From the NCBI GenBank assembly GCA_016650215.1, contig JAENWF010000033.1, positions 1 to 57,561 of the forward strand: DNA of 57,561 bases. Direction: 5' to 3'. Positions 8,981 to 51,959 of the stretch are shown piece by piece. The notes beneath the pieces are model-generated. The model did no database searches, had not been told where the DNA came from, and worked only from the letters and a program-made list of their open reading frames with translations. Numbering within the stretch: position 1 is the first letter of the stretch; each line of letters begins with the position of its first letter. The stretch comes from Thermoanaerobaculia bacterium. Its GTDB lineage: Bacteria > Acidobacteriota > Thermoanaerobaculia > Gp7-AA8. A program made the position numbers and the translations under genes.

Positions 8981-9112
8981 AACCCTGAGCGAAGCGAAGG
9001 GTCTACTGAGAGCACAAGCGCTGCGCGTGCACGTCTCGAAGAACGTGTCGCGTGCAGATAGCGACCTATCGCTCGTGCGATCAGAAGATCCTTCGCTTCG
9101 CTCAGGATGACA
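8981..9112. repeat. family-A repeat, inverted pair
   Basis: Left arm CCTGAGCGAAGCGAAGGGTC (8984-9003). Right arm GATCAGAAGATCCTTCGCTTCGCTCAGGATGAC (about 9079-9111). The same core recurs at 9 or more sites in the window. Confidence 0.85.
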
Positions 9113-11630: not shown

Positions 11631-12839
11631 ATGACCTACGACGTCGTGATTGCGGGCGCGGGAGCCGCGGGACTGATGGCGGCGATCTTCGCGGCGCGCG
11701 GCGGAGCGAAGGTGGCCGCTCTCGACGGAGCGCCGAGACTCGGCGCGAAAATTCTCATCGCCGGAGGGGGGCGCTGCAACGTCACGCACGACATCGTCCG
11801 CCCTGAAGACTTCAACGGCAGTCGCAATGCGATTGCGAAAGTTTTGCGGACATTCACCGTCGAGGAGACGATCCACTTCTTCGGAGACCTCGGCGTCGTT
11901 CTCAAACGCGAGGAAACGGGAAAGCTTTTTCCCGTGACTGATCGTGCGAGAACGGTCCTCGATGCACTGACGAATGCCGCGCGCGAGGCAGGGGCGGAGC
12001 TGTTCACGAACGCGCGCGTCGAGAGCGTGCGCGCAGGATTCGTCGTGGAGACCCCGTCGCGAACGCTCTCGGCCGCGAGGCTCATCCTCGCGACCGGCGG
12101 GCGAAGCGTGCCGAAGACCGGCAGCGACGGGCATGGTTACGAGCTTGTGCGCAGCCTCGGCCATACGGTCAGCGAGACCTTCCCCGCGCTGGTCCCGCTC
12201 GTCATCAGAGAAGAGCATTGGCTGAAGGAGCTGAGCGGAACTGCCGCAGAGGCGGAGATGATGGTGACGACCGCAACGGGGAGGGTCATCGCTCGCGACC
12301 GCGGCTCATTGCTCTTGACGCACTTTGGTTTGAGCGGACCGCTCGCGCTCGATCTGAGCCGGCACTGGATCGCCGCGCGCCGCGACGATCCGCAGTCGAA
12401 GCTGCTGCTGAACTTTCTTCCGGGCGTGCGATTCGAGCAGTGCGAGGAGATGCTGCTCGATGCGGCGGATTTGAATCCGCGGGCGACGATCGCGAGCGCG
12501 TTGCGCGGGCAGGTGCCCGAGCGCGTGCTGGCTCGCGTGTCGGAGTCAATTCCGATCGCGAAGATGACGCGCGAGGCTCGGCGCGAAGCGATTCGGATGC
12601 TGACTTCGCTCGAAGTCCCAGTGTCACGCGACCGCGGATTCGACTACGCCGAGGTGACGGCGGGCGGCGTGCCGCTCACCGAGATCGATCTTGCCAGCAT
12701 GGAGTCGCGAAAGTGCCCTGGGCTCTATCTCTGCGGCGAGATCCTCGACGTCGACGGAAAGATCGGCGGCTACAACTTTCAGTGGGCATGGGCGAGCGGG
12801 CGGCTCGCGGGGATGGCGGCGGCGGGGGTTAACTGTTAA
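11631..12839 (+). CDS. HI0933-like FAD-dependent oxidoreductase (aminoacetone-oxidase family flavoprotein)
   Basis: YDVVIAGAGAAGLMAA (GxGxxG), GGGRCNVTH and C-terminal GYNFQWAWASG are typical of this family. Confidence 0.88.
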   Translation: MTYDVVIAGAGAAGLMAAIFAARGGAKVAALDGAPRLGAKILIAGGGRCNVTHDIVRPEDFNGSRNAIAKVLRTFTVEETIHFFGDLGVVLKREETGKLFPVTDRARTVLDALTNAAREAGAELFTNARVESVRAGFVVETPSRTLSAARLILATGGRSVPKTGSDGHGYELVRSLGHTVSETFPALVPLVIREEHWLKELSGTAAEAEMMVTTATGRVIARDRGSLLLTHFGLSGPLALDLSRHWIAARRDDPQSKLLLNFLPGVRFEQCEEMLLDAADLNPRATIASALRGQVPERVLARVSESIPIAKMTREARREAIRMLTSLEVPVSRDRGFDYAEVTAGGVPLTEIDLASMESRKCPGLYLCGEILDVDGKIGGYNFQWAWASGRLAGMAAAGVNC

Positions 12840-12873
12840 CCGTTAGACCGTTGTACCGGTAGACCGCTCGACG
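12828..12873. repeat. short tandem array (2 x 7 nt then 4 x 8 nt) overlapping the oxidoreductase stop codon
   Basis: Units are GTTAACT GTTAACC GTTAGACC GTTGTACC GGTAGACC GCTCGACG. TAA at 12837-12839 lies in unit 2. Confidence 0.7.
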
Positions 12874-28815: not shown

Positions 28816-28850
28816 CATTCAACACTCAATGTTGAACGTTGAATGTTGAA
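28816..28850. repeat. abutting inverted heptamers, AT-rich (CATTCAA/TTGAATG type)
   Basis: CATTCAA CACTCAA | TGTTGAA CGTTGAA TGTTGAA. CATTCAAC pairs with GTTGAATG, and TTCAACA pairs with TGTTGAA. Confidence 0.7.
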
Positions 28851-32118: not shown

Positions 32119-32167
32119 AGGACTGGGTGCTGAGTGCTGAGTGCTGAGGACTGAGGACTGAGTGAGT
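32119..32167. repeat. heptamer tandem array, left arm (AGGACTG / AGTGCTG units, 7 units)
   Basis: AGGACTG GGTGCTG AGTGCTG AGTGCTG AGGACTG AGGACTG AGTGAGT. Confidence 0.9.
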
Positions 32168-32189: not shown

Positions 32190-32281
32190 GTCATCCCGAG
32201 CGAAGCGAGGGATCCCCCGCGTCCGGGCGATGTTCGCATTAGCGCGGGGGGTCCTTCGCCGTCTTCGCGGCTCAGGATGAC
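32190..32281. repeat. family-A palindromic element (92 bp), homologous to 12887..12980
   Basis: GTCATCCCGAGCGAAGCGAGGGATCCCCCGCGTCCGGGCGATGTTCGCATTAGCGCGGGGGGTCCTTCGCCGTCTTCGCGGCTCAGGATGAC. Confidence 0.88.
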
Positions 32282-32305: not shown

Positions 32306-32368
32306 CAGTCCTCAGCACTCAGTCCTCAGTCCTCAGCACTCAGCACTCAGCACTCAGTCCTCAGTCCT
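32306..32368. repeat. heptamer tandem array, right arm (CAGTCCT / CAGCACT units, 9 units), reverse complement of 32119..32167
   Basis: CAGTCCT CAGCACT CAGTCCT CAGTCCT CAGCACT CAGCACT CAGCACT CAGTCCT CAGTCCT. Units 3-8 are complementary to left units 1-6 (42 bp, 1 mismatch). Confidence 0.9.
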
Positions 32369-32426: not shown

Positions 32427-35400
32427 ATGAAGCGTTTCTTTTTTCCTGCGCTCTTTCTGATTGCCACGTATGCATCGGCGGCGAACACGCTCCGCGTTAC
32501 GACCGCAGGCCCTGTCGGCGAAGTCGCCACGCTGCGCGAGGCGAACGAGGTGCGAGTCGTCTTCTCCGAGCCGATGGTCGCGCTCGGAAAGATTCCTGAG
32601 CCGGTCACGGCGCCGTTCTTACGGATCGATCCGCCGGTCGCGGGAACGTTCCGGTGGTCCGGGACGACGACGCTGATCTTCACGCCGAAAGCGCCGCTGC
32701 CATTCTCGAAACGCTTCGAGGTCACAGTCGATGCGAGCGCAAAGTCCGTCGCCGGAAACACGCTCGACCGCGTTTACCGCTTCGCGTTCATGACGCCTTC
32801 GATTCGTCTGACGAGCACCGAGTGGTATCGCAAGGGCGGCCGCGCGGACGCGCCGGTCATCATTGCGCTCCGTTTCAATCAGCCGGTTGATGTCGCGGCG
32901 ATCGTCCAGCATCTGCAGCTTCGCACGGCCGCGCACGACGTGCAGGTGCCGCAGATCATGGCCCCTGCGAAGGCGGGCGCCGATTTCAGTGCAAAGCAGG
33001 CGCGCGCGGTCGCGGCAGGCGCGGCCGGCGGCGTCAACGTTTTTGCGAATCTCGCACAGCAATGGGACAAGGAACGTTTCCCTCCCGCGAACGATCTAGT
33101 CGTACTCGAGACGAAGCCCGGAATCGTGTCGGACACATGGATCGAAGTACTACTCGACGACAAGCTCGCCGGCCGTTCGCAGCAGTACACCGTCCAGCTC
33201 GAGCCGATGTTCTTCGTCAACGGAATGGGATGCCGCTACGAATGCGATCCCGATTCTTCGAATCCGATCGACTTTCGCTCGATGGGAGGAGTTCGCTTCG
33301 ATGACGTGAGCAAGGTCGTCACAGTCACCGACATCACCGATCCCGCGAAAGAAGTGAAGCTGATCCCGAAGACTCAACCGCGCGAGTACGACTACCCATC
33401 GACCTCCTACACGCTCGACGAGCTCGGTTACACAACTCAGCCTGCGCGAACGTACCGCGTGCGAGTCGAACCGTCGCTCCCCTCGATCGATGGACAGCGT
33501 CTCGACTACGTCTGGACAGGGGTAGTCGAGTACTGGCACCGCACCGCGTTCATCAGCTTCGGGGACGGCCACGGCGTGTGGGAATCATCCGGCGGATCGA
33601 TTCTCCCGTTCCACGCGCGCAATGTCCGCAGCGTTCAGCAGTGGCTCGCCCCACTCTCGCTGGACGAGCTCGTTCCCACGATTGTGGCGCTGCAGAACAA
33701 CGGTTACCGCTCCGCGCCGCCGAAGACCCAGCCGAAATCGCGGGCGCTGGAGGTCGTTCCCGACAAGACGCAGTCAATCGGCCTCGACATCGCCCCGGCG
33801 ATCGGAAGCGACAACAAAGGTCTTCTCTGGGCCGCGATGAAGCCGGCAAACCCGATCGCGAAGTCACGCCTCAACGATCCGTCGACGCGTGCCTCGATCG
33901 TCCAGGCGACGAACCTCGGCATCAGCGTCAAAGACAGCCCGCTCAACACACTCGTTCTCGTTACTCGTCTTGACGACGGCGCGCCGGTCGCCGCCGCGAA
34001 CGTCACGATCCGAACTGTCGACAACAAAGTCTTCTGGAGCGGAACGACCGACGCGCACGGCATCGCAATCGCCGAAGGAACGCGCCTTCGCATCAAAAAG
34101 CGCGACAAACCGCAGAAGCCGGCCGCTCCAAACATGATGCAGGAGGATCAGTCGGACTACGAGTGGTGGCGCGTCTTCAACGACCTTCACTTCGTCGTCA
34201 CCGCCGAGAAAGACGGCGACATCGCCTACGTCGGCAGCGACTGGAACGAAGGGATCACTCCATGGGAGTTCAACGCGAACTTCACTCCCGACGAGGCTCT
34301 CCCGCTGCTGCGCGGCACGATCTTCACCGACCGCGGCGTCTACAAGCTCGGTGAGGAAGTGAACGCGAAACTCGTTGTCCGCAGCGACACGCCGACCGGT
34401 ATGCAGCTTCTGCCATCCGGCACGAAGATCAGCGTCGCGCTGCGCGACAGCCAGAACAAGGAGATCGCTAAAAAAGAGCTTTCCCTCAACGACTGGAGCA
34501 GCAGCGAATGGCAGTTTCGCGTCCCCGCCGACGCACCGCTCGGGACGTGGACGATGTTCGCGCGCATCGAAGGGCAGGAGCGCCAGATCAACGGTGACTT
34601 TCTTGTCGCCGCCTATCGGCGTCCCGACTTTCGCGTCGACGTCACGCTCGACGCCCCGACCTCGATCGCCGGAACCAATGTCACCGGACGCACCGCCGGC
34701 CGCTATCTCTACGGCGGCGCGATGGCGAACCGCGATGCGCGATGGACCTGGTCGAAAATGCCTTCGTGGGACGTCCCGCAATCAATCCGCGAACGCTGGC
34801 CCGCCGACCGTTACACCTTCCTCGGCTGGGACGACGACCGTCCGTCGGATCGAGTCACCGTCACATCCGAAGAGCCGGAGCTCGATGCGCAGGGGAATCT
34901 CACGCTCACTCTTCCGACCGAGAAGTCGGACGGTTGGCCCTACGACTATCGTCTCGAAACCGAAGTGACGGACGTGACGCGGCAACGCATCGCGAACCGC
35001 GCGACGTTCCGCGTCGACCCGGCCCCGTGGTACATCGGCGTGAAGACGCCGCCGTATTTTGGGGAAGCGAAAAACGGCATCGACACGGAGATCGTCGCGG
35101 CAGGAGTCGACGGACTCGGTGTCGCCGGCGTGCGCGTTCAGGTCTCGCTTCTGAAAGTTCAGTACAACAGTGTTCGCCGCGCATCGGGCAACGGCTTCTA
35201 CGAATGGGAAACCGAGCGGAAAGACGTGCCGTCGGGCGAGTGGACGATCACGACGCAGTCGCAGCCAGTCCCGCTCCGCATTCCGATCGCCGAAGGTGGG
35301 CAGTATCGGCTCATTGCGACGGCGAACGATGGTGATGGGCGCACGACCACGACACGCCTCTGGTTCTACGCGAGTGGTCCCGGCTATTCGGCGTGGGAAC

Positions 35401-38165
35401 GCTACGACCACAACCGCATCGATCTAATCCCGGAGAAGAAGAACTACAAACCGGGTGACACGGCGCGGATCATGATCAAGTCGCCGTGGGAGCGCGCGAC
35501 CGCGCTGCTTACGACCGAGCGCGAAGGCGTCCGCACGTGGACGCCGTTCGAGCTGACATCGACGCAGCAGACGATCACCGTTCCGATCACCGAGCGCGAC
35601 ATCCCGAACGTCTTCATCTCCGTCCTTCTGATCAAAGGACGGACGCAGCAGCCGGTGACCGAGGATGCAGGCGATCCCGGCAAGCCGGCGTTCCGCCTCG
35701 GCTATGTCGAATTGAAGGTCGAGGACGCGCTCAAGCGACTCAAGGTCGACGTTGACGCCGACCGCGACGAGTTCCGTCCCGGCTCGAAAGCGCGCGTCGA
35801 CGTGAACGTGAAGGACGCGAGCGGTAAACCCTCGCAGTCTGAGGTCACGTTGTGGGCAGTCGATTACGGCGTGCTTTCGCTGACCGCGTACCAGACGCCC
35901 GATGTGCTCGACTCGATCTATCTCGACAAGGCGCTGCAGGTGCTCAACGAAGACTCGCGCCAGCGGATCGTCAGCCGCCGCGTGCTCACTCCGAAAGGGG
36001 CGAGCGACGGCGGAGGCGGCGGACGCGACGCGGGACCGGGGACGATGCGGAAAGATTTCCGCGTGCTCGCGTTCTGGCTCGGCTCGATCGTCACCGACGC
36101 GAGCGGCAAGGCCCGAACCGAGGTGAAGCTGCCGGAATCGCTGACGACGTACCGGATCATGGCGGTTGCTGGCGACCGCACGTCGCGGTTCGGATGGGCG
36201 CAGGACGAGATCAAGGTCAACAAACCGCTGATGCTGACGCCGGCGTTCCCGCGATTCCTGACGCCGGGAGACACCGCGACGTTCGGCGCCGCGGTTCACA
36301 ACCAGCTCAAGCGCGGCGGGAAGGCGACGGTCACCATCAAGTCGCTCGACCCGAGTGTCATCACGATCAACGGATCCGATCGCGCGACGATCGAGATCAA
36401 GCCGGGCGCCGCATCGGAAGTCCGATTCGATGCAGTCGCGCGTTCGGTCGGGATCGCACGCATTCAGATGAGCGTGAAGATGGGACGCGAGAGCGATTCA
36501 TTCGAAGATGTGATTCCGGTGCGCGTGCTGGTCAGTCCCGAGACTGTTGCCGCATACGGCGAGGCGAAACCGAAGGCGAGCGAGAAACTCGAGCTGCCTA
36601 CGAATGTGGTTCCTGGATTTGGCGGGCTGCGACTCGAGCTCTCGTCGACCGCCATGGTCGGCCTAGGCGAAGGGGCGCGGTACCTGGTCGAGTATCCGTA
36701 CGGCTGCGCCGAACAGCGCGCGTCGACAGGACTCGCGTTGATGCTCGCGGCCGACCTCGGCGAAGCATTTGACCTGCCGGGCGTCGATGCCGCGAATGCG
36801 CGGCCGATGGCGCAGTCGAATCTCACACGTCTCGAGCAGTTCCAGTGCGGCAACGGCGGGTTCGCATTCTGGCCGGGCCAGTGCACCAGCGTCTCGCCGT
36901 ATCTATCGAGTTACGTGATGCATGTCCTGCAGCGTGGCAAGAAGCTTGGCTACAACGTCAGTGATGACACGCTCAATCGCGGCTACGAGTACCTCACGCG
37001 CAATTTGAGCGAGACACCGGGGCCGGTGAACGAAGGCTGGTGGCCTGCGTACACCGCGTGGCAGGCCTTCGCGGTGAAGGTGCTGGCCGAGGGCGGACGC
37101 AATGCTGACTCGCACATCAATCGGCTCTTTGGATACGCCGATCGGATGCCGATCTTCGGCATCTCGCATCTCGCCGACGCACTGATCGCGAAAGGCGAGA
37201 AGGGTGAGCGGCTCGACGATCTGCTGCGCCGCATCCGCAACGCGATGCTGCCTGAAGCGGGATTCGCGCATGTGGGCGAGCTGTCGGATCCTTACCTTCT
37301 CTGGTTCTGGAACTCGAACGTCCGCTCGACCGCGATCGCGATGGGGACGCTCGTCCGCAACGGCTCGGATGAAGAGCTCGTGAAGCGGATGGTGCGCTGG
37401 CTCATGCGTGTCCGGAAGGATGGGCGATGGGGCAACACGCAGGAAAACGCGTGGGCGATGGGCTCACTCGTGGACTATTACCGCAAGTACGAATCGGAGG
37501 CGCCCGACTTTGCCGGCATCGTGACACTCGGTGCGGCGACGATCGCGCAGGAAGAGTTCCGCGGCCGCTCGACCGAGGCGAAAACGAAAGAGATTCCGAT
37601 CGGACAGCTCTCCTCGGGAACGATCACGTTCGACCGGCAGGGGAGCGGGACACTCTTCTATCTGATGCGGCTGCGCTACGCATCGCTCGAGCGCAATCTC
37701 GGCGCGATGAATCAGGGATTCGTCGTGGAGCGTCGTTACGACGTGAACGACGCCGTGGCGTCGCAGTTCAAGGCAGGCGACCTGGTGCGCGTCACGCTGA
37801 CCATCCGCAACACCAAGGAGCGGCGCTTCGTCGCGGTGACCGATCCGATTCCAGCGGGGACGGAGCCGGTCGACACGCTCTTCGCGACGACAGCAAGCGA
37901 CGCCAACGAGCAGCGGCGAGAAAGCGCGCGGGCGAGCGACTGGACGGCGTGGTGGCAGCGCGGAGGGTGGGATCACGAGGAGCGTCACGACGATCGCATC
38001 AACGTCTTCGCGACGCGTCTCAGCGAGGGCGAGCACACGTACACATACCTGCTGCGCGCGACGACATCGGGCACCTTCATGACCGCGCCGGCGCATGTCG
38101 AAGAGATGTACGAGCCTGAAGTCTTCGGGCGAACCGCCTCGAGCATCATCGAGGTCAGTAAGTGA
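32427..38165 (+). CDS. bacterial alpha-2-macroglobulin family protein (YfhM/ECAM type), 1912 aa
   Basis: Signal peptide MKRFFFPALFLIATYASA. Intact thioester motif YPYGCAEQRAS (CAEQ at 36705-36716). Its size and the immediately downstream pbpC match the known A2M-PBP1C gene pairing. Confidence 0.9.
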   Translation: MKRFFFPALFLIATYASAANTLRVTTAGPVGEVATLREANEVRVVFSEPMVALGKIPEPVTAPFLRIDPPVAGTFRWSGTTTLIFTPKAPLPFSKRFEVTVDASAKSVAGNTLDRVYRFAFMTPSIRLTSTEWYRKGGRADAPVIIALRFNQPVDVAAIVQHLQLRTAAHDVQVPQIMAPAKAGADFSAKQARAVAAGAAGGVNVFANLAQQWDKERFPPANDLVVLETKPGIVSDTWIEVLLDDKLAGRSQQYTVQLEPMFFVNGMGCRYECDPDSSNPIDFRSMGGVRFDDVSKVVTVTDITDPAKEVKLIPKTQPREYDYPSTSYTLDELGYTTQPARTYRVRVEPSLPSIDGQRLDYVWTGVVEYWHRTAFISFGDGHGVWESSGGSILPFHARNVRSVQQWLAPLSLDELVPTIVALQNNGYRSAPPKTQPKSRALEVVPDKTQSIGLDIAPAIGSDNKGLLWAAMKPANPIAKSRLNDPSTRASIVQATNLGISVKDSPLNTLVLVTRLDDGAPVAAANVTIRTVDNKVFWSGTTDAHGIAIAEGTRLRIKKRDKPQKPAAPNMMQEDQSDYEWWRVFNDLHFVVTAEKDGDIAYVGSDWNEGITPWEFNANFTPDEALPLLRGTIFTDRGVYKLGEEVNAKLVVRSDTPTGMQLLPSGTKISVALRDSQNKEIAKKELSLNDWSSSEWQFRVPADAPLGTWTMFARIEGQERQINGDFLVAAYRRPDFRVDVTLDAPTSIAGTNVTGRTAGRYLYGGAMANRDARWTWSKMPSWDVPQSIRERWPADRYTFLGWDDDRPSDRVTVTSEEPELDAQGNLTLTLPTEKSDGWPYDYRLETEVTDVTRQRIANRATFRVDPAPWYIGVKTPPYFGEAKNGIDTEIVAAGVDGLGVAGVRVQVSLLKVQYNSVRRASGNGFYEWETERKDVPSGEWTITTQSQPVPLRIPIAEGGQYRLIATANDGDGRTTTTRLWFYASGPGYSAWERYDHNRIDLIPEKKNYKPGDTARIMIKSPWERATALLTTEREGVRTWTPFELTSTQQTITVPITERDIPNVFISVLLIKGRTQQPVTEDAGDPGKPAFRLGYVELKVEDALKRLKVDVDADRDEFRPGSKARVDVNVKDASGKPSQSEVTLWAVDYGVLSLTAYQTPDVLDSIYLDKALQVLNEDSRQRIVSRRVLTPKGASDGGGGGRDAGPGTMRKDFRVLAFWLGSIVTDASGKARTEVKLPESLTTYRIMAVAGDRTSRFGWAQDEIKVNKPLMLTPAFPRFLTPGDTATFGAAVHNQLKRGGKATVTIKSLDPSVITINGSDRATIEIKPGAASEVRFDAVARSVGIARIQMSVKMGRESDSFEDVIPVRVLVSPETVAAYGEAKPKASEKLELPTNVVPGFGGLRLELSSTAMVGLGEGARYLVEYPYGCAEQRASTGLALMLAADLGEAFDLPGVDAANARPMAQSNLTRLEQFQCGNGGFAFWPGQCTSVSPYLSSYVMHVLQRGKKLGYNVSDDTLNRGYEYLTRNLSETPGPVNEGWWPAYTAWQAFAVKVLAEGGRNADSHINRLFGYADRMPIFGISHLADALIAKGEKGERLDDLLRRIRNAMLPEAGFAHVGELSDPYLLWFWNSNVRSTAIAMGTLVRNGSDEELVKRMVRWLMRVRKDGRWGNTQENAWAMGSLVDYYRKYESEAPDFAGIVTLGAATIAQEEFRGRSTEAKTKEIPIGQLSSGTITFDRQGSGTLFYLMRLRYASLERNLGAMNQGFVVERRYDVNDAVASQFKAGDLVRVTLTIRNTKERRFVAVTDPIPAGTEPVDTLFATTASDANEQRRESARASDWTAWWQRGGWDHEERHDDRINVFATRLSEGEHTYTYLLRATTSGTFMTAPAHVEEMYEPEVFGRTASSIIEVSK

Positions 38166-40390
38166 ATCCTCGCGAACTCATTCGGACTCTGTGTGGCGCC
38201 GCCGTGATTCTCATCGCGGTCGCGGCCTGGATCCGACTCGGGCCGATCGCGCCGGAGGTGCTCGATCAGCGGCGATTCATCTCGTCGACGATCGTCGATC
38301 GGAATGGTGTCGTTCTGTACGAGCCGCTTTCGGCGAGCGGGGGCCGCGGTATCGCGCTGACATCAACGTCGTTGCCGCTGCGCGTGGTCGACGCGACGCT
38401 CGCGGCGGAGGATCGGCGCTTTTTTCGCCATCCCGGCGTCGATCCGATCGCGGTCGCGCGCGCAGCGTGGCACAACGTGAAGAACGCGGGCCTCGTCGAG
38501 GGAGGCTCGACACTGTCGCAGCAGACCGCAAAGCTGCTGCTCGGCTCGCGCGATCGCGGCGTCGCGACGAAGGTCCGCGAGACGTTGCTGGCACTGAGGA
38601 TCGAGCATCGATTCAGCAAGCGCGAGATCCTCGCGATGTATCTGAATCTCGCGCCATACGGCAACCGGATTCACGGCATCTCGCGCGCAAGCCGAGTCTA
38701 CTTTGGCTGCGCGCCGGAAGATCTGACGCACGCGCAGGCGGCGTTTCTTGCGTCACTGCCGCAGAGACCCGGCGCGTTCAACCCGCTGCGCGATGCGACG
38801 CGCGCGGTGCCGAGGCAGCGATACGTGCTCTCGCGGATGAAGATGCCGGCGAATGAGCGCGCACAGGCGCTGCGCGAGCGTCTCGAGCTCTCGGGCGGCG
38901 GCGAGCCGCTCGTCGCCCAGCATTTCGTCGAGAGGGTGCTCGAGCGGAGCAACACGCCCGTCATCAGGACGACGCTCGACGTCGGGTTGCAGCGCGAAGT
39001 TCTCGGCATCATCGCCGCGCAGCGGCAAAGACTCATCGCTCACGGCGCGACGAGCGTCGCAGTGGCTGTGCTCGACAACCGCACGGGCGACTGGCTCGCG
39101 TGGGAAGGTTCGGGCGATTACTTCGGCGACGGCTTCGGCGGCGCGATCGATGCGGTCGTGACGCCGCGTCAGCCCGGCTCGACGCTCAAGCCCTTCACGT
39201 ACGCGCTCGCATTCGAGAGGGGATACTCGCCGGCGACGGTGCTCCCCGATGTTGTCTCGAATTTTCCGACCGCGGAGGAAGGCGTCGTCTATTCGCCGCG
39301 CAACTACGATGGCCGCTATCGCGGGCCGCTGCGCGTGCGAAGCGCGCTCGCCGGATCGCAGAACGTGCCGGCAGTCGCCATGCTCGCGCAGCTCGGCACG
39401 CCGTCGCTCCATCGCCTTCTCCGCAACGCCGGCTTCACAAACCTCACGAAGACCGCCGACTACTACGGCCTCGGCCTCACCCTCGGCGACGCCGAGGTAA
39501 GACTCGACCAGTTGATCGCTGCCTACGCAGCGTTCGCGCGCGGAGGACGCCCGATCACGCCGCGGTTTCGATTCGATGACCCTCGACCCTCGACTCTCGA
39601 CCCTCGACCCTTGTTTTCCAAAACGACCTCCTTCTGGATCGCCGACATCCTCTCCGACCGTGCCGCGCGCGAGTACGCCTTCGGCAGCGGCGGCAGTCTC
39701 GACTTTCCGTTCCGCGTCGCGGTCAAGACCGGAACCTCGCAGGCGTATCGCGACAACTGGACGATCGGCTTTACGCGCGACGTCACCGTCGGCGTCTGGG
39801 TAGGAAACTTCGATCGAGAAGAGCTGCGCAACTCGACAGGCGTGACCGGCGCAGCGCCAATCTTCAACGCGGTCATGCTCGCGGCAGTGAAGCGCGTGCG
39901 CGGCTCGTTGCCGATCGGCGACGAAGAGCCGATCGTCGCTCCGCCGGATGATCTCGAGGAGGTTGCGATCTGCGCGTTGTCCGGCCTCCGGCCTTCGACG
40001 TTCTGCGAGTCGACGGAGCGCGAGTGGGCGCGAAAGGATGCGCCGGCCGAATTCTGCTCGTGGCATCACGATGAGTATGTCGACTGGCCGCCTGAATATC
40101 GCGCGTGGGCTCGCGCAGCGTTGCCACCCGCGCCGCAACCGCGGCGCCCGCCCGCGCAAAGAATGGCTGCTCTGCGCGTCGTCAATCCGCCGGACGGCGC
40201 GACGTATCTAATCGATCCGACCCTGCGCAGCGGATTTCAGACGCTGAAGTTCCGCGCGACCGCGAGTGCGCGATGGGAAATCAACGGCCGCGCCGTCCCC
40301 TCGTCATGGCCGCTCCAACGCGGCAAACACACGATCGCCGCCGTCGATGGGCGCGGGAATCGGGACGAGGTCGAGATTTACGTAAAGTAG
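38162..40390 (+). CDS. pbpC: penicillin-binding protein 1C (bifunctional glycosyltransferase/transpeptidase)
   Basis: GT51 motifs EDRRFFRHPGVD and GGSTLSQQ. Transpeptidase motifs STLK, SQN and KTGTS. PBP1C-type C-terminal domain. GTG at 38162 overlaps the A2M TGA (GTGA). Confidence 0.9.
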   Translation: MNPRELIRTLCGAAVILIAVAAWIRLGPIAPEVLDQRRFISSTIVDRNGVVLYEPLSASGGRGIALTSTSLPLRVVDATLAAEDRRFFRHPGVDPIAVARAAWHNVKNAGLVEGGSTLSQQTAKLLLGSRDRGVATKVRETLLALRIEHRFSKREILAMYLNLAPYGNRIHGISRASRVYFGCAPEDLTHAQAAFLASLPQRPGAFNPLRDATRAVPRQRYVLSRMKMPANERAQALRERLELSGGGEPLVAQHFVERVLERSNTPVIRTTLDVGLQREVLGIIAAQRQRLIAHGATSVAVAVLDNRTGDWLAWEGSGDYFGDGFGGAIDAVVTPRQPGSTLKPFTYALAFERGYSPATVLPDVVSNFPTAEEGVVYSPRNYDGRYRGPLRVRSALAGSQNVPAVAMLAQLGTPSLHRLLRNAGFTNLTKTADYYGLGLTLGDAEVRLDQLIAAYAAFARGGRPITPRFRFDDPRPSTLDPRPLFSKTTSFWIADILSDRAAREYAFGSGGSLDFPFRVAVKTGTSQAYRDNWTIGFTRDVTVGVWVGNFDREELRNSTGVTGAAPIFNAVMLAAVKRVRGSLPIGDEEPIVAPPDDLEEVAICALSGLRPSTFCESTEREWARKDAPAEFCSWHHDEYVDWPPEYRAWARAALPPAPQPRRPPAQRMAALRVVNPPDGATYLIDPTLRSGFQTLKFRATASARWEINGRAVPSSWPLQRGKHTIAAVDGRGNRDEVEIYVK
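39578..39612 (+). repeat. 5-unit heptamer tandem array inside the pbpC CDS
   Basis: GACCCTC GACCCTC GACTCTC GACCCTC GACCCTT, which encodes DDPRPSTLDPRPL. Confidence 0.9.
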
Positions 40391-44705: not shown

Positions 44706-44945
44706 TCCTGAGCCGCGAAGACGGCGAAGGATCTTCTGATGTAAGGACGATGCACGTGGCTGCGTCCCTCCCAGCGCTATCAGAAGATCCTTCGCTTCGC
44801 TCAGGATGACAGGACGATGCACGTGGCTGCGTCCCTCCCAGCGCTATCAGAAGATCCTTCGCTTCGCTCAGGATGACGGGACGATGCACGTGGCTGCGTC
44901 CCTCCCAGCGCTATCAGTAGATCCTTCGCTTCGCTCAGGATGCGG
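44706..44945. repeat. family-A long form: one inverted half plus 3 tandem copies of a 67-bp unit
   Basis: The unit GGACGATGCACGTGGCTGCGTCCCTCCCAGCGCTATCAGAAGATCCTTCGCTTCGCTCAGGATGACA occurs at 44745, 44812 and 44879, with 0-4 differences between copies. Confidence 0.92.
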
Positions 44946-45748: not shown

Positions 45749-46051
45749 ATGACGTTGACACCGAAACAGCGGCAGTACCTGAGAGGCCTCGCGCACCCCT
45801 TTGAACCCGTCGTCCGCGTCGGAAAGGGTGGCGTCAGCCCCAGTGTCATCGCTGAGACGAAAAAGGCGCTGGACTCACACGAGCTGATCAAGATCCGTGT
45901 CGAAGGCGAGGAGCGGAAGACCCTTGTCGAAAAACTCGCGGCTGAGACCGCCTCGGAAATCGCGGGGATCGTCGGAAAGACAGCGATCCTCTATCGGGCG
46001 CGCGAAGATGATCCGGAGATCGAGTTGCCAGAAGCCTCTACCCGATCCTGA
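45749..46051 (+). CDS. yhbY: YhbY/CRS1-type RNA-binding ribosome assembly protein
   Basis: LTPKQRQYLRGLAHPFEPVVRVGKGGVSPSVIAETKKALDSHELIKIRV. The stop codon lies inside a family-A repeat. Confidence 0.85.
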   Translation: MTLTPKQRQYLRGLAHPFEPVVRVGKGGVSPSVIAETKKALDSHELIKIRVEGEERKTLVEKLAAETASEIAGIVGKTAILYRAREDDPEIELPEASTRS

Positions 46052-46106
46052 GCGAAGCGAAGGATCTTCTGATCGCGCCTGGGAGGACGCAGCCACAGCG
46101 GCCGTG
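46044..46106. repeat. family-A long-form copy (inverted orientation) filling a convergent intergenic gap
   Basis: GATCCTGAGCGAAGCGAAGGATCTTCTGATCGCGCCTGGGAGGACGCAGCCACAGCGGCCGTG is the reverse complement of the 67-bp unit at 44745. Confidence 0.85.
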
Positions 46107-47104: not shown

Positions 47105-47182
47105 CCTCCCAGCGCACCGCGCGACGATCAGGCTTTGCCGCGACGCCAGACTTCCTCCTTCCTTCGCTTCGCTCAGGATGAC
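47105..47182. repeat. family-A related copy
   Basis: CCTCCCAGCGC...GATCAG...CCTTCGCTTCGCTCAGGATGAC. Its CCTCCC, read on the minus strand, is the GGGAGG RBS of the PHP gene. Confidence 0.7.
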
Positions 47183-49270: not shown

Positions 49271-49319
49271 GTGACGAGTGACGCGTTACGCGTGACGAGT
49301 CCTGAGTGGTGAGTCTCTC
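49271..49319. repeat. heptamer tandem array (GTGACGA type) running into the GT2 start codon
   Basis: GTGACGA GTGACGC GTTACGC GTGACGA GTCCTGA GTGGTGA GTCTCTC. The GTG start at 49306 is the first triplet of unit 6. Confidence 0.85.
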
Positions 49320-51865: not shown

Positions 51866-51959
51866 AGTGACGCGTGACGAGCATTGGCCGATGACCTGCT
51901 CGAACCGAATCACAGATCTCGACTTGTAACTCGTCACTCGTAACGCGTCACTCGATACG
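51866..51959. repeat. inverted heptamer arrays (GTGACG type) around a 38-nt spacer
   Basis: Left units AGTGACG CGTGACG AGCATTG (51866-51886). Right units TGTAACT CGTCACT CGTAACG CGTCACT CGATACG (51925-51959). Confidence 0.8.

What the first reader, a model, noticed from the sequence alone, without database searches (positions are those of the whole stretch)
39578..39612. Heptamer tandem array inside the pbpC coding sequence: possible slippage-driven frameshift switch
Five units (GACCCTC x2, GACTCTC, GACCCTC, GACCCTT) encode DDPRPSTLDPRPL. They sit in what looks like a variable loop just before the conserved FWIADILSD block of PBP1C. Because 7 is not a multiple of 3, gain or loss of one unit would shift the frame and truncate the protein before its KTG motif and C-terminal domain. 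That is the classic logic of contingency loci, but it is not known for pbpC. The array may equally be a fixed, harmless insertion.
Basis: partly seen in the sequence, partly recalled or inferred. Interest (0 to 1): 0.65.

Follow-up and report, generated by a model that had tools for sequence, protein, structure and literature searches.

The report
Heptamer microsatellite in a PBP1C loop
A real five-unit 7-base tandem repeat sits in frame in a floppy loop of an intact cell-wall enzyme gene (pbpC) of a soil Acidobacterium; it is one allele of a loop that repeatedly carries such repeats in related species, but nothing found here shows that it acts as an on/off switch.

Summary
Window 39578-39612 is an imperfect (GACCCTC)x5 array (TRF score 61; 0 of 100 shuffles match). 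It lies in frame at residues 473-484 of an intact PBP1C gene, between the SQN and KTG motifs. Gain or loss of 1-2 units would truncate the protein.

The switch interpretation is not supported by the tests available:
- All 13 loop arrays found without bias for frame are in frame.
- A profile of the predicted out-of-frame products found no array-driven OFF allele among 5.8 billion proteins.
- The tract has at most 2.4 perfect units.
- No same-species sequence exists to test length variation.

The array is not an isolated oddity. In Thermoanaerobaculia, 7-8-nt repeats are the dominant repeat class. pbpC carries them at three unconstrained sites, about 40-fold denser than the adjacent alpha-2-macroglobulin gene. 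The same loop holds other arrays in other species, homogenised within species. Two genes 94% identical elsewhere carry different octamer arrays of equal length.

Best reading: a slippage-born coding microsatellite in a permissive, hypervariable loop, kept in frame by selection. A true contingency role remains possible (about 0.15).

The parts
39578..39612 (+). Imperfect heptanucleotide array (GACCCTC)x5. Units 3 and 5 each carry one C>T change. It encodes residues 473-484 (DPRPSTLDPRPL).
39548..39625 (+). Variable coil loop of the transpeptidase domain (residues 463-488, RPITPRFRFDDPRPSTLDPRPLFSKT). It lies between the AYAAFARGG helix and the TSFWIADIL helix. It is 26 residues here, 24 in the nearest relatives, 23 in the (CGNCAAC)x4 species, and down to 5 in others.
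   Evidence: Alignments. In the AF2 model the segment is coil; mean pLDDT of residues 471-480 is 80, against 96 and 94 for the flanking blocks. The loop and the ~30 residues after it (469-517) do not align to PBP1A 4oon.
38162..40390 (+). pbpC (penicillin-binding protein 1C), 742 aa, intact. Transglycosylase domain 38357-38842, transpeptidase domain 39059-39877, BiPBP_C domain 40160-40378.
39179..39190 (+). STLK (SxxK) active-site motif, residues 340-343, upstream of the array.
39356..39364 (+). SQN (SxN) motif, residues 399-401, upstream of the array.
39725..39733 (+). KTG motif, residues 522-524, downstream of the array. It would be lost from the reading frame by a change of 1 or 2 units.
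32427..38165 (+). Bacterial alpha-2-macroglobulin gene. Its stop codon overlaps the pbpC start by 4 nt, so it is the operon partner. It served as the internal control for repeat density.
   Evidence: Pfam domains bMG10, A2M_BRD, A2M, MG2 and bMG3. ORF coordinates.

Best explanation
The array is a coding microsatellite. It is a short 7-nt tandem repeat produced by replication slippage in a structurally permissive coil loop of the PBP1C transpeptidase domain, and purifying selection keeps it in frame, so the enzyme is made intact. It has no demonstrated regulatory role.

It is one allele of a loop that is hypervariable across Thermoanaerobaculia. In that clade 7-8-nt repeats are the dominant repeat class. 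They arise, expand, contract and homogenise in the few unconstrained segments of pbpC. Slips of 1 or 2 units make null alleles. On present evidence these are a mutational liability that is purged, not a switch that is used.

Shown: the array, the frame, the intact gene, the loop's variability, the clade-wide pattern, and the absence of OFF alleles in assemblies.

Inferred: slippage as the origin, purifying selection as the reason for frame maintenance, and a low switching rate for this interrupted tract.
For: 1. The gene is intact with all catalytic motifs, and the array is in frame.

2. The site is permissive. Loop length ranges from 5 to more than 70 residues among relatives. The AF2 model shows coil with a dip in confidence.

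3. The array's codon use is poor. GC3 is 7 of 12 codons in the array against 0.80 for the gene, as expected for slippage-made rather than selected sequence.

4. Period 7 dominates repeats in the clade. It accounts for 63 of 100 arrays with at least 3.5 copies and 80% matches in 1.34 Mb, and period 8 for 14 more. Of the 77 period-7/8 arrays, 49 lie in the 18% of bases outside supported reading frames.

5. The same loop carries other arrays.
   - (CGNCAAC)x4 occurs in L005, L021, L024, L052, L072, L131 and L149.
   - An octamer x3 occurs in L017, and (CTCCTCA)x4.6 in L060 and L075.
   - L100 has 13.9 units plus an inverted 5.4-unit partner; L089 has an inverted pair.
   - All are in frame.

6. 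Units are identical within a species and differ between species. For example, CGGCAAC in L024 and CGCCAAC in L072 are each perfect x4, although four-fold sites of the genes are only 48-66% identical. This is concerted evolution, which implies ongoing slippage.

7. L205 and L206 are 94.4% identical over pbpC but 54.5% identical in the 77-nt loop. Their loops hold (CTCGACGA)x4 and (CCGCGCAA)x4 respectively, with equal total length.

8. There are no OFF alleles.
   - All 84 related pbpC loci read through the loop in one frame, except one contig that ends inside the loop.
   - The other frameshifts seen are an N-run or scattered single-base errors away from repeats.
   - A profile of the two out-of-frame tails from 33 species, searched against 5.8 billion proteins, returned only P0121. 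P0121 comes from a nanopore contig with at least 4 frameshifts and no repeat at the shift.

9. Loop lengths are equal among the members compared in all 13 clusters at 90% identity.
Against: - pbpC carries 19 period-7/8 arrays in 181 kb, against 1 in 379 kb of the adjacent, co-transcribed A2M gene (naive Fisher p = 7e-9, not corrected for shared ancestry). Such concentration of non-triplet repeats in one gene, including near its start codon, is what comparative screens take as a sign of phase variation.
- Homogenisation of a 4-unit array at constant length is most simply reached through single-unit loss and gain, which means passing through OFF intermediates.
- The swap of loop sequence between 94%-identical genes suggests recombination or diversifying selection rather than plain neutrality.
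- The OFF-product search is well powered only for one shifted frame (tail of 100 aa or more). It is weak for the other frame, whose tail is 34 aa.
- Assemblies report consensus sequence, so minority OFF cells would not be seen.
- No same-species data exist for the window.
Confidence: 0.6

Rival explanations
1. True contingency locus. The non-triplet array makes pbpC reversibly switch ON and OFF by slipped-strand mispairing, and this heritable heterogeneity is selected for, for example to modulate the A2M-PBP1C periplasmic module.
For: - The frameshift arithmetic is correct.
- 7-8-nt arrays recur at three sites of pbpC across species, about 40-fold denser than in the adjacent A2M gene.
- Concerted evolution and equal-length replacement of arrays imply frequent unit gain and loss.
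- One contig (L077) ends inside the loop array, as would happen with strain heterogeneity.
- pbpC is dispensable in E. coli (my own knowledge, Schiffer and Holtje 1999, not checked here).
- Heptanucleotide repeats inside ORFs are accepted candidate phase-variation tracts in H. influenzae (PMC2651432).
Against: - 0 of 13 loop arrays found without bias for frame are OFF. The chance of that is 1e-4 if half were OFF and 0.055 if 20% were.
- No array-driven OFF product was found among 5.8 billion proteins.
- Loop lengths are equal within clusters at 90% identity.
- The window tract has only 5 units with 2 interruptions, and its longest perfect run is 17 nt. The H. influenzae heptanucleotide tracts proposed as phase-variable mostly have 7-38 units.
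- The product is a periplasmic peptidoglycan synthase of a free-living soil bacterium, not a surface or restriction-modification function.
Confidence: 0.15
2. The array is the remnant of an inserted heptamer-array element. Such elements are pairs of inverted 7-nt arrays around a core and litter the intergenic DNA of these genomes. On this reading one landed in the loop and was trimmed to an in-frame stub, rather than the array arising by slippage in place.
For: - In L100 and L089 the loop holds inverted array pairs like the intergenic ones. L060 and L075 carry a roughly 45-residue insertion ending in an array.
- Intergenic inverted pairs are common in the clade. One lies in the window at 32119-32164 / 32316-32361.
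Against: - The window's array has no inverted partner in the loop.
- Its 3' end (RPLFS) overlaps residues conserved in the nearest relatives. In the CGACNNN register it ends exactly 20 nt before TTCTGG, as the (CGNCAAC)x4 arrays of L005, L021 and L072 do. Both facts favour growth in place from resident codons.
- No transposase, target duplication or other sign of mobility was seen.
Confidence: 0.12
3. Protein-level function. The repeat-encoded Pro/Arg/Ser/Thr-rich peptide, or its length, is selected for, for example to tune access to the transpeptidase site or to evade a loop-binding inhibitor. The nucleotide repeat is only the means of generating in-frame variants.
For: - The loop is far more divergent than the rest of the gene between close relatives: 54.5% against 94.4% identity.
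- The two loop types in the L205/L206/L017/L077 group do not follow overall gene similarity. This is compatible with diversifying or balancing selection, or with recombination.
Against: - The loop is deleted entirely in many orthologues that keep all catalytic motifs.
- Amino-acid changes track unit changes mechanically.
- Codon use in the array is poor.
- No structure or biochemical data bear on the loop.
Confidence: 0.08
4. Assembly artefact or chance periodicity.
For: The window probably comes from a metagenome assembly and is the only copy of this sequence in the collections searched.
Against: - 0 of 100 shuffles reproduce the array.
- The ORF reads through it in frame into conserved sequence.
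- Independent assemblies of other species show comparable arrays at the same codons.
- A 35-nt repeat is well below read and k-mer lengths.
Confidence: 0.03

Closest known systems
Simple-sequence-repeat contingency loci of host-adapted bacteria, such as the tetra-, penta- and heptanucleotide tracts in Haemophilus influenzae ORFs (PMC2651432).
   Same: A non-triplet tandem repeat lies inside an ORF, so gain or loss of a unit shifts the frame and truncates the product. Mismatch repair corrects 7-nt loops poorly (my own knowledge).
   Different: - The tract here is short and interrupted: 5 units, with at most 2.4 perfect. Most of the H. influenzae heptanucleotide tracts quoted have 7-38 units.
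- It lies mid-gene in a periplasmic housekeeping-type enzyme of a free-living soil bacterium.
- No OFF alleles or repeat-number variants were seen in any related assembly.
Over-represented heptameric repeats of large, high-GC or cyanobacterial genomes: GGGNATC repeats of Xanthomonas and Nostoc (PMC4692102), cyanobacterial STRR heptamers, and TAACTGA repeats of Beggiatoaceae (PMC4679880).
   Same: - Period 7 dominates the repeat spectrum.
- Arrays are spread over the genome, strongly enriched in non-coding DNA, and often have about 4 units.
- The antisense strand of the window's array, (GAGGGTC)n, carries four GGG tracts like those G-rich repeats.
   Different: - Here the unit sequence differs from array to array, with no single consensus. 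Many arrays come as inverted pairs.
- This array is inside a coding sequence, where the published repeats are under-represented.
- G-quadruplex formation was not tested, and the (CGNCAAC) arrays at the same site could not form one.
In-frame coding minisatellites (VNTRs) in variable linkers of bacterial proteins.
   Same: A repeat sits in an unstructured, length-tolerant segment. Repeat number differs between lineages (4 to 14 units at this loop). The protein stays functional.
   Different: The unit length is not a multiple of three. Only changes of three units, or compensated changes, keep the frame, and the peptide period is 7 residues read through all three frames.
The A2M (YfhM)-PBP1C operon of Gram-negative bacteria.
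   Same: The same two-gene arrangement with overlapping stop and start codons, the same domain architecture, and intact catalytic motifs.
   Different: No repeat arrays or hypervariable loop have been described for PBP1C in the literature searched. No PBP1C chain is among the 14 PDB sequences matched at E <= 1e-20; the best matches are PBP1A and PBP1B.

Membership tests
PBP1C (TIGR02073, class A penicillin-binding protein 1C) | Scores above the curated cut-off of the equivalog model. | tested here: met
   528.6 bits against a cut-off of 494.2, covering residues 33-741.
PBP1C (TIGR02073, class A penicillin-binding protein 1C) | Domain order: transglycosylase, then transpeptidase, then the C-terminal BiPBP_C domain. 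| tested here: met
   PF00912 at residues 66-227, PF00905 at 300-572, PF06832 at 667-739.
PBP1C (TIGR02073, class A penicillin-binding protein 1C) | Transpeptidase motifs SxxK, SxN and KTG are present and in frame. | tested here: met
   STLK 340, SQN 399, KTG 522.
PBP1C (TIGR02073, class A penicillin-binding protein 1C) | Genomic pairing with a bacterial alpha-2-macroglobulin gene. | tested here: met
   The upstream 1912-aa ORF has bMG10, A2M_BRD, A2M, MG2 and bMG3 domains and overlaps the pbpC start.
SSR contingency (phase-variable) locus | A tandem repeat with a unit length that is not a multiple of three, inside the ORF or promoter. | tested here: met
   7-nt unit, 5 copies, in the ORF.
SSR contingency (phase-variable) locus | A tract long and pure enough to be hypermutable. 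| tested here: not met
   4.9 copies with 2 interruptions; the longest perfect run is 17 nt. Most of the H. influenzae heptanucleotide tracts quoted in PMC2651432 have 7-38 units. No rate was measured.
SSR contingency (phase-variable) locus | Repeat number varies among strains or cells, and OFF alleles exist. | tested here: inconclusive
   - No same-species sequence exists: the nearest protein is 69% identical, and there were 0 hits to the exact flanks.
- In relatives, 0 of 13 loop arrays are OFF and no OFF product was found in 5.8 billion proteins.
- Loop lengths are equal within clusters at 90% identity.
- Read-level data are not available.
SSR contingency (phase-variable) locus | The gene belongs to a class whose variation is adaptive (surface structures, restriction-modification, host interaction). 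| not testable with these tools
   PBP1C is a periplasmic peptidoglycan synthase, and no phenotype data exist for this clade. Enrichment of arrays in pbpC over A2M is only indirect evidence.
G-rich heptameric repeats of the Xanthomonas/Nostoc type (PMC4692102) | GGGNATC-type consensus unit, shared genome-wide. | tested here: not met
   - The antisense unit here is GAGGGTC.
- No other copy occurs in the window: the only matches to two units (up to 2 mismatches) are the array itself, 4 overlapping hits against 1.19 expected by chance.
- Units differ from array to array in the clade.
G-rich heptameric repeats of the Xanthomonas/Nostoc type (PMC4692102) | Preferentially non-coding location close to ORF ends. 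| tested here: not met
   This array is mid-ORF, although the clade's arrays as a whole are enriched in non-coding DNA.

The most novel reading that the evidence does not exclude
pbpC of Thermoanaerobaculia may be a genuine hypervariable or contingency gene. On this reading, non-triplet 7-8-nt microsatellites at three sites (N-terminal tail, interdomain linker, transpeptidase loop) are maintained because they generate reversible null alleles and loop variants of the PBP1C partner of the alpha-2-macroglobulin defence module. The window's (GACCCTC)x5 would be one such switch allele. This would be repeat-mediated phase or 'antigenic' variation of a periplasmic cell-wall synthase in free-living soil bacteria.
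Probability: 0.15. Interest if true: 0.75.

Novelty: new member of a known kind. Interest (0 to 1): 0.45.

Why it matters
For the window itself the result is modest. The gene is intact, and the repeat is best read as a tolerated microsatellite.

The comparative picture is less ordinary. One loop of a conserved cell-wall enzyme is a hot spot for frame-shifting 7-8-nt repeats across a whole class of Acidobacteriota, and their unit sequences turn over while total length stays fixed. Heptameric repeats are known to be over-represented in large high-GC genomes, but they are almost unstudied (PMC4692102).

This locus offers a compact, alignable case for asking two questions: how such arrays arise and homogenise, and whether free-living soil bacteria use them as contingency switches. 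It also gives a practical warning. pbpC in these genomes is prone to apparent frameshifts and contig breaks at these sites.

Tried and rejected
- **Exact-flank search for same-species alleles.** A pattern allowing 2-6 units found 0 hits in metagenome contigs. The nearest protein anywhere is 69% identical. Length variation of this array therefore could not be tested.
- **Search for OFF-allele products.** A profile of out-of-frame tails gave one hit, P0121. I rejected it as evidence because its contig has at least 4 frameshifts and no repeat at the shift.
- **Frameshifts in L039 and L089.** These are an N-run and scattered single-base errors, not arrays.
- **Cluster-member comparison for 7-residue length polymorphism.** None was found. 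It did reveal the loop swap within the P0071 cluster.
- **Reconstructing the array's history from loop lengths.** Models with one extra unit plus compensation were not resolvable at 65-69% identity.
- **Rfam scan of the window.** No matches.
- **Literature searches.** Searches for heptanucleotide repeats in Acidobacteria and for pbpC phase variation found nothing relevant.
- **Programmed ribosomal frameshifting.** Considered and dropped, because the unit is not a slippery X XXY YYZ heptamer.
- **Diversity-generating retroelement.** Considered and dropped, because the variation is in unit identity and number, not adenine-specific.
Full report
**1. The observation**

Window 39578-39612 reads GACCCTC GACCCTC GACTCTC GACCCTC GACCCTT. 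Tandem Repeats Finder lists it as period 7, 4.9 copies, 92% matches, score 61. A five-unit consensus with up to three mismatches matches once in the window and in none of 100 dinucleotide-preserving shuffles.

The array starts at codon position 1 of residue 473 of ORF 38162..40390 (+) and encodes DPRPSTLDPRPL. The ORF is PBP1C:
- TIGR02073 scores 528.6 bits against a curated cut-off of 494.2.
- Transglycosylase, transpeptidase and BiPBP_C domains are all present.
- STLK is at residue 340, SQN at 399 and KTG at 522.

The upstream 1912-residue ORF is a bacterial alpha-2-macroglobulin whose stop codon overlaps the pbpC start. This is the usual A2M-PBP1C pair.

Removing or adding one or two units in silico gives stops at residues 545-599 and takes KTG out of frame. 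Changes of three units stay in frame.

**2. Where the window comes from, and what could not be tested**

The best protein matches are PBP1C of uncultured Thermoanaerobaculia (Acidobacteriota). The closest is only 69% identical, and the window's own 90% cluster has one member. The 80 loci recovered from species-representative genomes are all 68% identical or less. An exact-flank pattern allowing two to six units found nothing in metagenome contigs.

There is therefore no same-species sequence with which to ask whether this array varies in length. That remains the decisive untested point.

**3. The loop**

In 120 homologous proteins and 87 translated loci, the segment between AYAxFARGG and TAFWITDIL ranges from 5 residues (GGQFSPRT) through 12 and 23 to more than 70. 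The flanks are nearly invariant. The window has 26 residues, its three nearest relatives have 24, and the most common long form has 23.

An AlphaFold2 model built on 89 sequences has mean pLDDT 88.5. It shows residues 468-486 as coil between two helices. Mean pLDDT of residues 471-480 is 80, against 96 and 94 for the neighbouring blocks.

The loop and the ~30 residues after it (469-517) are left unaligned against the best solved relative, PBP1A 4oon. No PBP1C chain is among the 14 PDB sequences matched at E <= 1e-20.

The array's codon use is poor: GC3 is 7 of 12 codons, against 0.80 for the gene. The site is structurally permissive, and the sequence looks slippage-made rather than selected.

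**4. The array is lineage-specific, but the phenomenon is not**

The nearest relatives (L202-L204) show no 7-nt periodicity. They share only the terminal RPLFS with the window.

Scanning the same loop in all loci for periodicity gave an unexpected result:

| Loci | Array in the loop |
|---|---|
| L072 | (CGCCAAC)x4, perfect |
| L024 | (CGGCAAC)x4, perfect |
| L131 | (CGGCAAC)x4, one substitution |
| L021 | (GGACAAC)x3 + CGACAAC |
| L005 | (NGGCAAC)x4 |
| L052, L149 | Degraded (CGACAAC)x4 |
| L017 | Octamer (CGCGCAAC)x3 |
| L060, L075 | (CTCCTCA)x4.6 at the end of a roughly 45-residue insertion |
| L100 | (ACAACGG)x13.9, preceded by an inverted (CGTTGTC)x5.4 |
| L089 | (CAGTTGC)x4 followed by the inverted (CGGCAAC)x3 |
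| L030 | Peptide RQAPTANRQ kept, but nucleotide periodicity decayed |

All are in frame. In the CGACNNN register, the window's array ends exactly 20 nt before TTCTGG, as the arrays of L005, L021 and L072 do. The window's array therefore occupies the same slot.

**5. Evidence that these arrays are dynamic**

Four-fold degenerate sites of pbpC are only 48-66% identical between the array-bearing species. Even so, units within a species are identical or nearly so, and they differ between species at the same unit position. This is concerted evolution, and it needs continuing gain and loss of units or conversion between them.

The sharpest case came from one 90% protein cluster. Contigs L205 and L206 are 94.4% identical over pbpC outside the loop (1998 of 2116 nt) but 54.5% identical over the 77-nt loop. 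L205 has (CTCGACGA)x4 and L206 has (CCGCGCAA)x4, with equal length.

Within this group of four roughly 90%-identical genes, loop type does not follow overall similarity. L205 shares its type with L077, and L206 with L017. L017 looks chimeric. This points to recombination of loop alleles or very fast turnover. L077's contig ends inside its array. That would fit strain heterogeneity in the sample, but it proves nothing.

**6. Genome-wide context**

The window plus 80 loci total 1.34 Mb. There, period 7 accounts for 63 of 100 arrays with at least 3.5 copies and 80% matches, and period 8 for 14 more. Periods 2-6 and 9-10 are rare.

Of the 77 period-7/8 arrays, 49 lie in the 18% of bases outside GC3-supported reading frames, often as inverted pairs. 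In the window, every other heptamer-type array is non-coding.

Among coding sequences, pbpC stands out. It has 19 arrays in 181 kb, against 1 in 379 kb of the adjacent A2M gene (naive Fisher p = 7e-9, not corrected for shared ancestry, although most units differ). The arrays fall at three sites:
- the N-terminal tail and membrane anchor;
- the linker after HFVERV;
- the loop studied here.

Published work notes that heptameric repeats are over-represented in large high-GC genomes and cyanobacteria, mostly between genes, and are little studied (PMC4692102). Heptanucleotide tracts inside ORFs are accepted candidates for phase variation in H. influenzae, where most of the tracts quoted have 7-38 units (PMC2651432). 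No paper in the library links pbpC to repeat-mediated phase variation.

**7. Tests of the switch hypothesis**

(a) Every one of the 84 related pbpC loci gives a single in-frame tblastn alignment across the loop, apart from the contig that ends there. The other frame breaks are not at repeats:
- L039 is an N-run.
- L089 has scattered single-base errors.
- L201 is a nanopore contig with at least four shifts.

Thirteen loop arrays were found by methods blind to frame, and all are ON. If half of natural alleles were OFF, as is common for classical contingency genes, the chance of this is about 1e-4. At 20% OFF it is 0.055.

(b) The two out-of-frame translations downstream of the loop are conserved across species. 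I built a profile of both tails from 33 species and searched 5.8 billion proteins with it. The only hit was P0121, from the nanopore contig. That hit shows the method can detect a shifted product even from a distant relative. The method is well powered only for the frame with a long tail, which corresponds to +1 or -2 units. The other frame's tail is 34 residues.

(c) In 13 clusters at 90% identity, the members compared have loops of equal length; they differ in sequence in the P0071 and P0049 clusters.

(d) The window's tract has two interruptions and at most 17 nt of perfect repeat.

Together these results argue against frequent switching. They do not exclude rare switching, or minority OFF cells hidden under consensus assemblies.

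**8. Interpretation**

The best-supported account (confidence 0.6) is a slippage-born coding microsatellite in a permissive, hypervariable loop. Purifying selection holds it in frame, and one- or two-unit slips create null alleles that are normally purged.

The main rival is a true contingency role (0.15). The enrichment of non-triplet arrays in pbpC and the signs of rapid unit turnover keep it alive.

The other rivals are:
- origin from an inserted inverted-array element (0.12);
- selection on the loop peptide or its length (0.08);
- artefact (0.03).

**9. Comparison with known systems and verdict**

The gene passes every PBP1C membership test.

The array shares the defining geometry of a contingency repeat: a non-triplet unit inside an ORF. 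It fails the tract-length and purity criterion, and the variation criterion could not be tested properly. I therefore do not file it as a phase-variable locus.

It belongs to the loosely described class of over-represented heptameric repeats, but it does not match the G-rich consensus type and is coding.

I rate it a new member of a known kind. Interest is 0.45, driven by the clade-wide pattern at this loop rather than by the window's array alone.

Noticed in passing
window 32119-32164 and 32316-32361 (intergenic, upstream of the A2M gene): Two heptamer arrays, (CTGAGTG/CTGAGGA)x6 and (CTCAGTC/CTCAGCA)x9, form 46-nt arms that are 98% complementary. They flank a 151-nt core that contains a dispersed 25-nt motif. 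The whole is a long potential hairpin just before the operon. There is no Rfam match.
   Followed up: partly
window 9087-9111, 32190-32214, 44786-44810, 44853-44877, 44920-44944, 46042-46066, 47158-47182: The dispersed 25-nt motif GTCATCCTGAGCGAAGCGAAGGATC occurs 7 times with up to 3 mismatches (0 expected by chance). Three copies lie in a 67-bp x3 tandem repeat at 44744-44942. A palindromic pair of a related motif sits between A2M and pbpC in L205 and L206 and carries a 24-nt indel. This looks like a REP- or MITE-like element family of the clade.
   Followed up: partly
window plus loci L001-L080 (1.34 Mb): Periods 7 and 8 dominate tandem repeats in Thermoanaerobaculia (63 and 14 of 100 arrays with at least 3.5 copies). 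They lie mostly in non-coding DNA, frequently as inverted pairs 30-100 nt apart, and the unit sequence differs from array to array.
   Followed up: partly
L024 9989-10022, L027 9962-9990, L033 9958-9987, L038 9990-10023, L041 9997-10026, L031 9904-10006; L002 10747-10772, L003 10745-10775, L004 10799-10831, L044 3237-3264: Relatives carry in-frame 7-8-nt arrays at two further pbpC sites: the N-terminal tail/membrane anchor and the linker after HFVERV. Overall pbpC has 19 arrays in 181 kb, against 1 in 379 kb for the adjacent A2M gene. The window's pbpC has none at these two sites.
   Followed up: partly
L205 and L206, alignment columns 1848-1925 (pbpC loop): Two contigs are 94.4% identical across pbpC but carry different octamer arrays of equal length in the loop, (CTCGACGA)x4 and (CCGCGCAA)x4, so the loop is 54.5% identical. 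Loop type is shared with less similar genes (L077 and L017 respectively). This suggests allele exchange or very rapid turnover.
   Followed up: yes
L100 1613-1650 and 1690-1786; L089 (minus strand, loop region): Inverted heptamer-array pairs are read through in frame inside the PBP1C loop. L100 has (CGTTGTC)x5.4 plus (ACAACGG)x13.9. L089 has (CAGTTGC)x4 plus (CGGCAAC)x3. This is the same architecture as the intergenic pairs.
   Followed up: partly
L077 11417-11445 (contig end): A species-representative contig ends inside its loop array, (ACTCGACG)x3.6. This may be an assembly break caused by co-existing loop alleles.
   Followed up: no
window 39578-39612, minus strand: The antisense strand, (GAGGGTC)n, carries four GGG tracts with loops of 4, 11 and 4 nt, which is formally a G-quadruplex motif. 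Every unit junction is a TCGA palindrome. Neither feature was tested, and the (CGNCAAC) arrays at the same site lack both.
   Followed up: no
window 39567-39576: A pentamer duplication, TTCGA TTCGA, lies one base upstream of the heptamer array inside the same loop.
   Followed up: no
window 12828-12866, 28831-28850, 49271-49300, 51922-51954: Four further weak 7-8-nt arrays (GTTAACC, GTTGAAC, GTGACGA, ACTCGTC) all lie outside GC3-supported reading frames.
   Followed up: no
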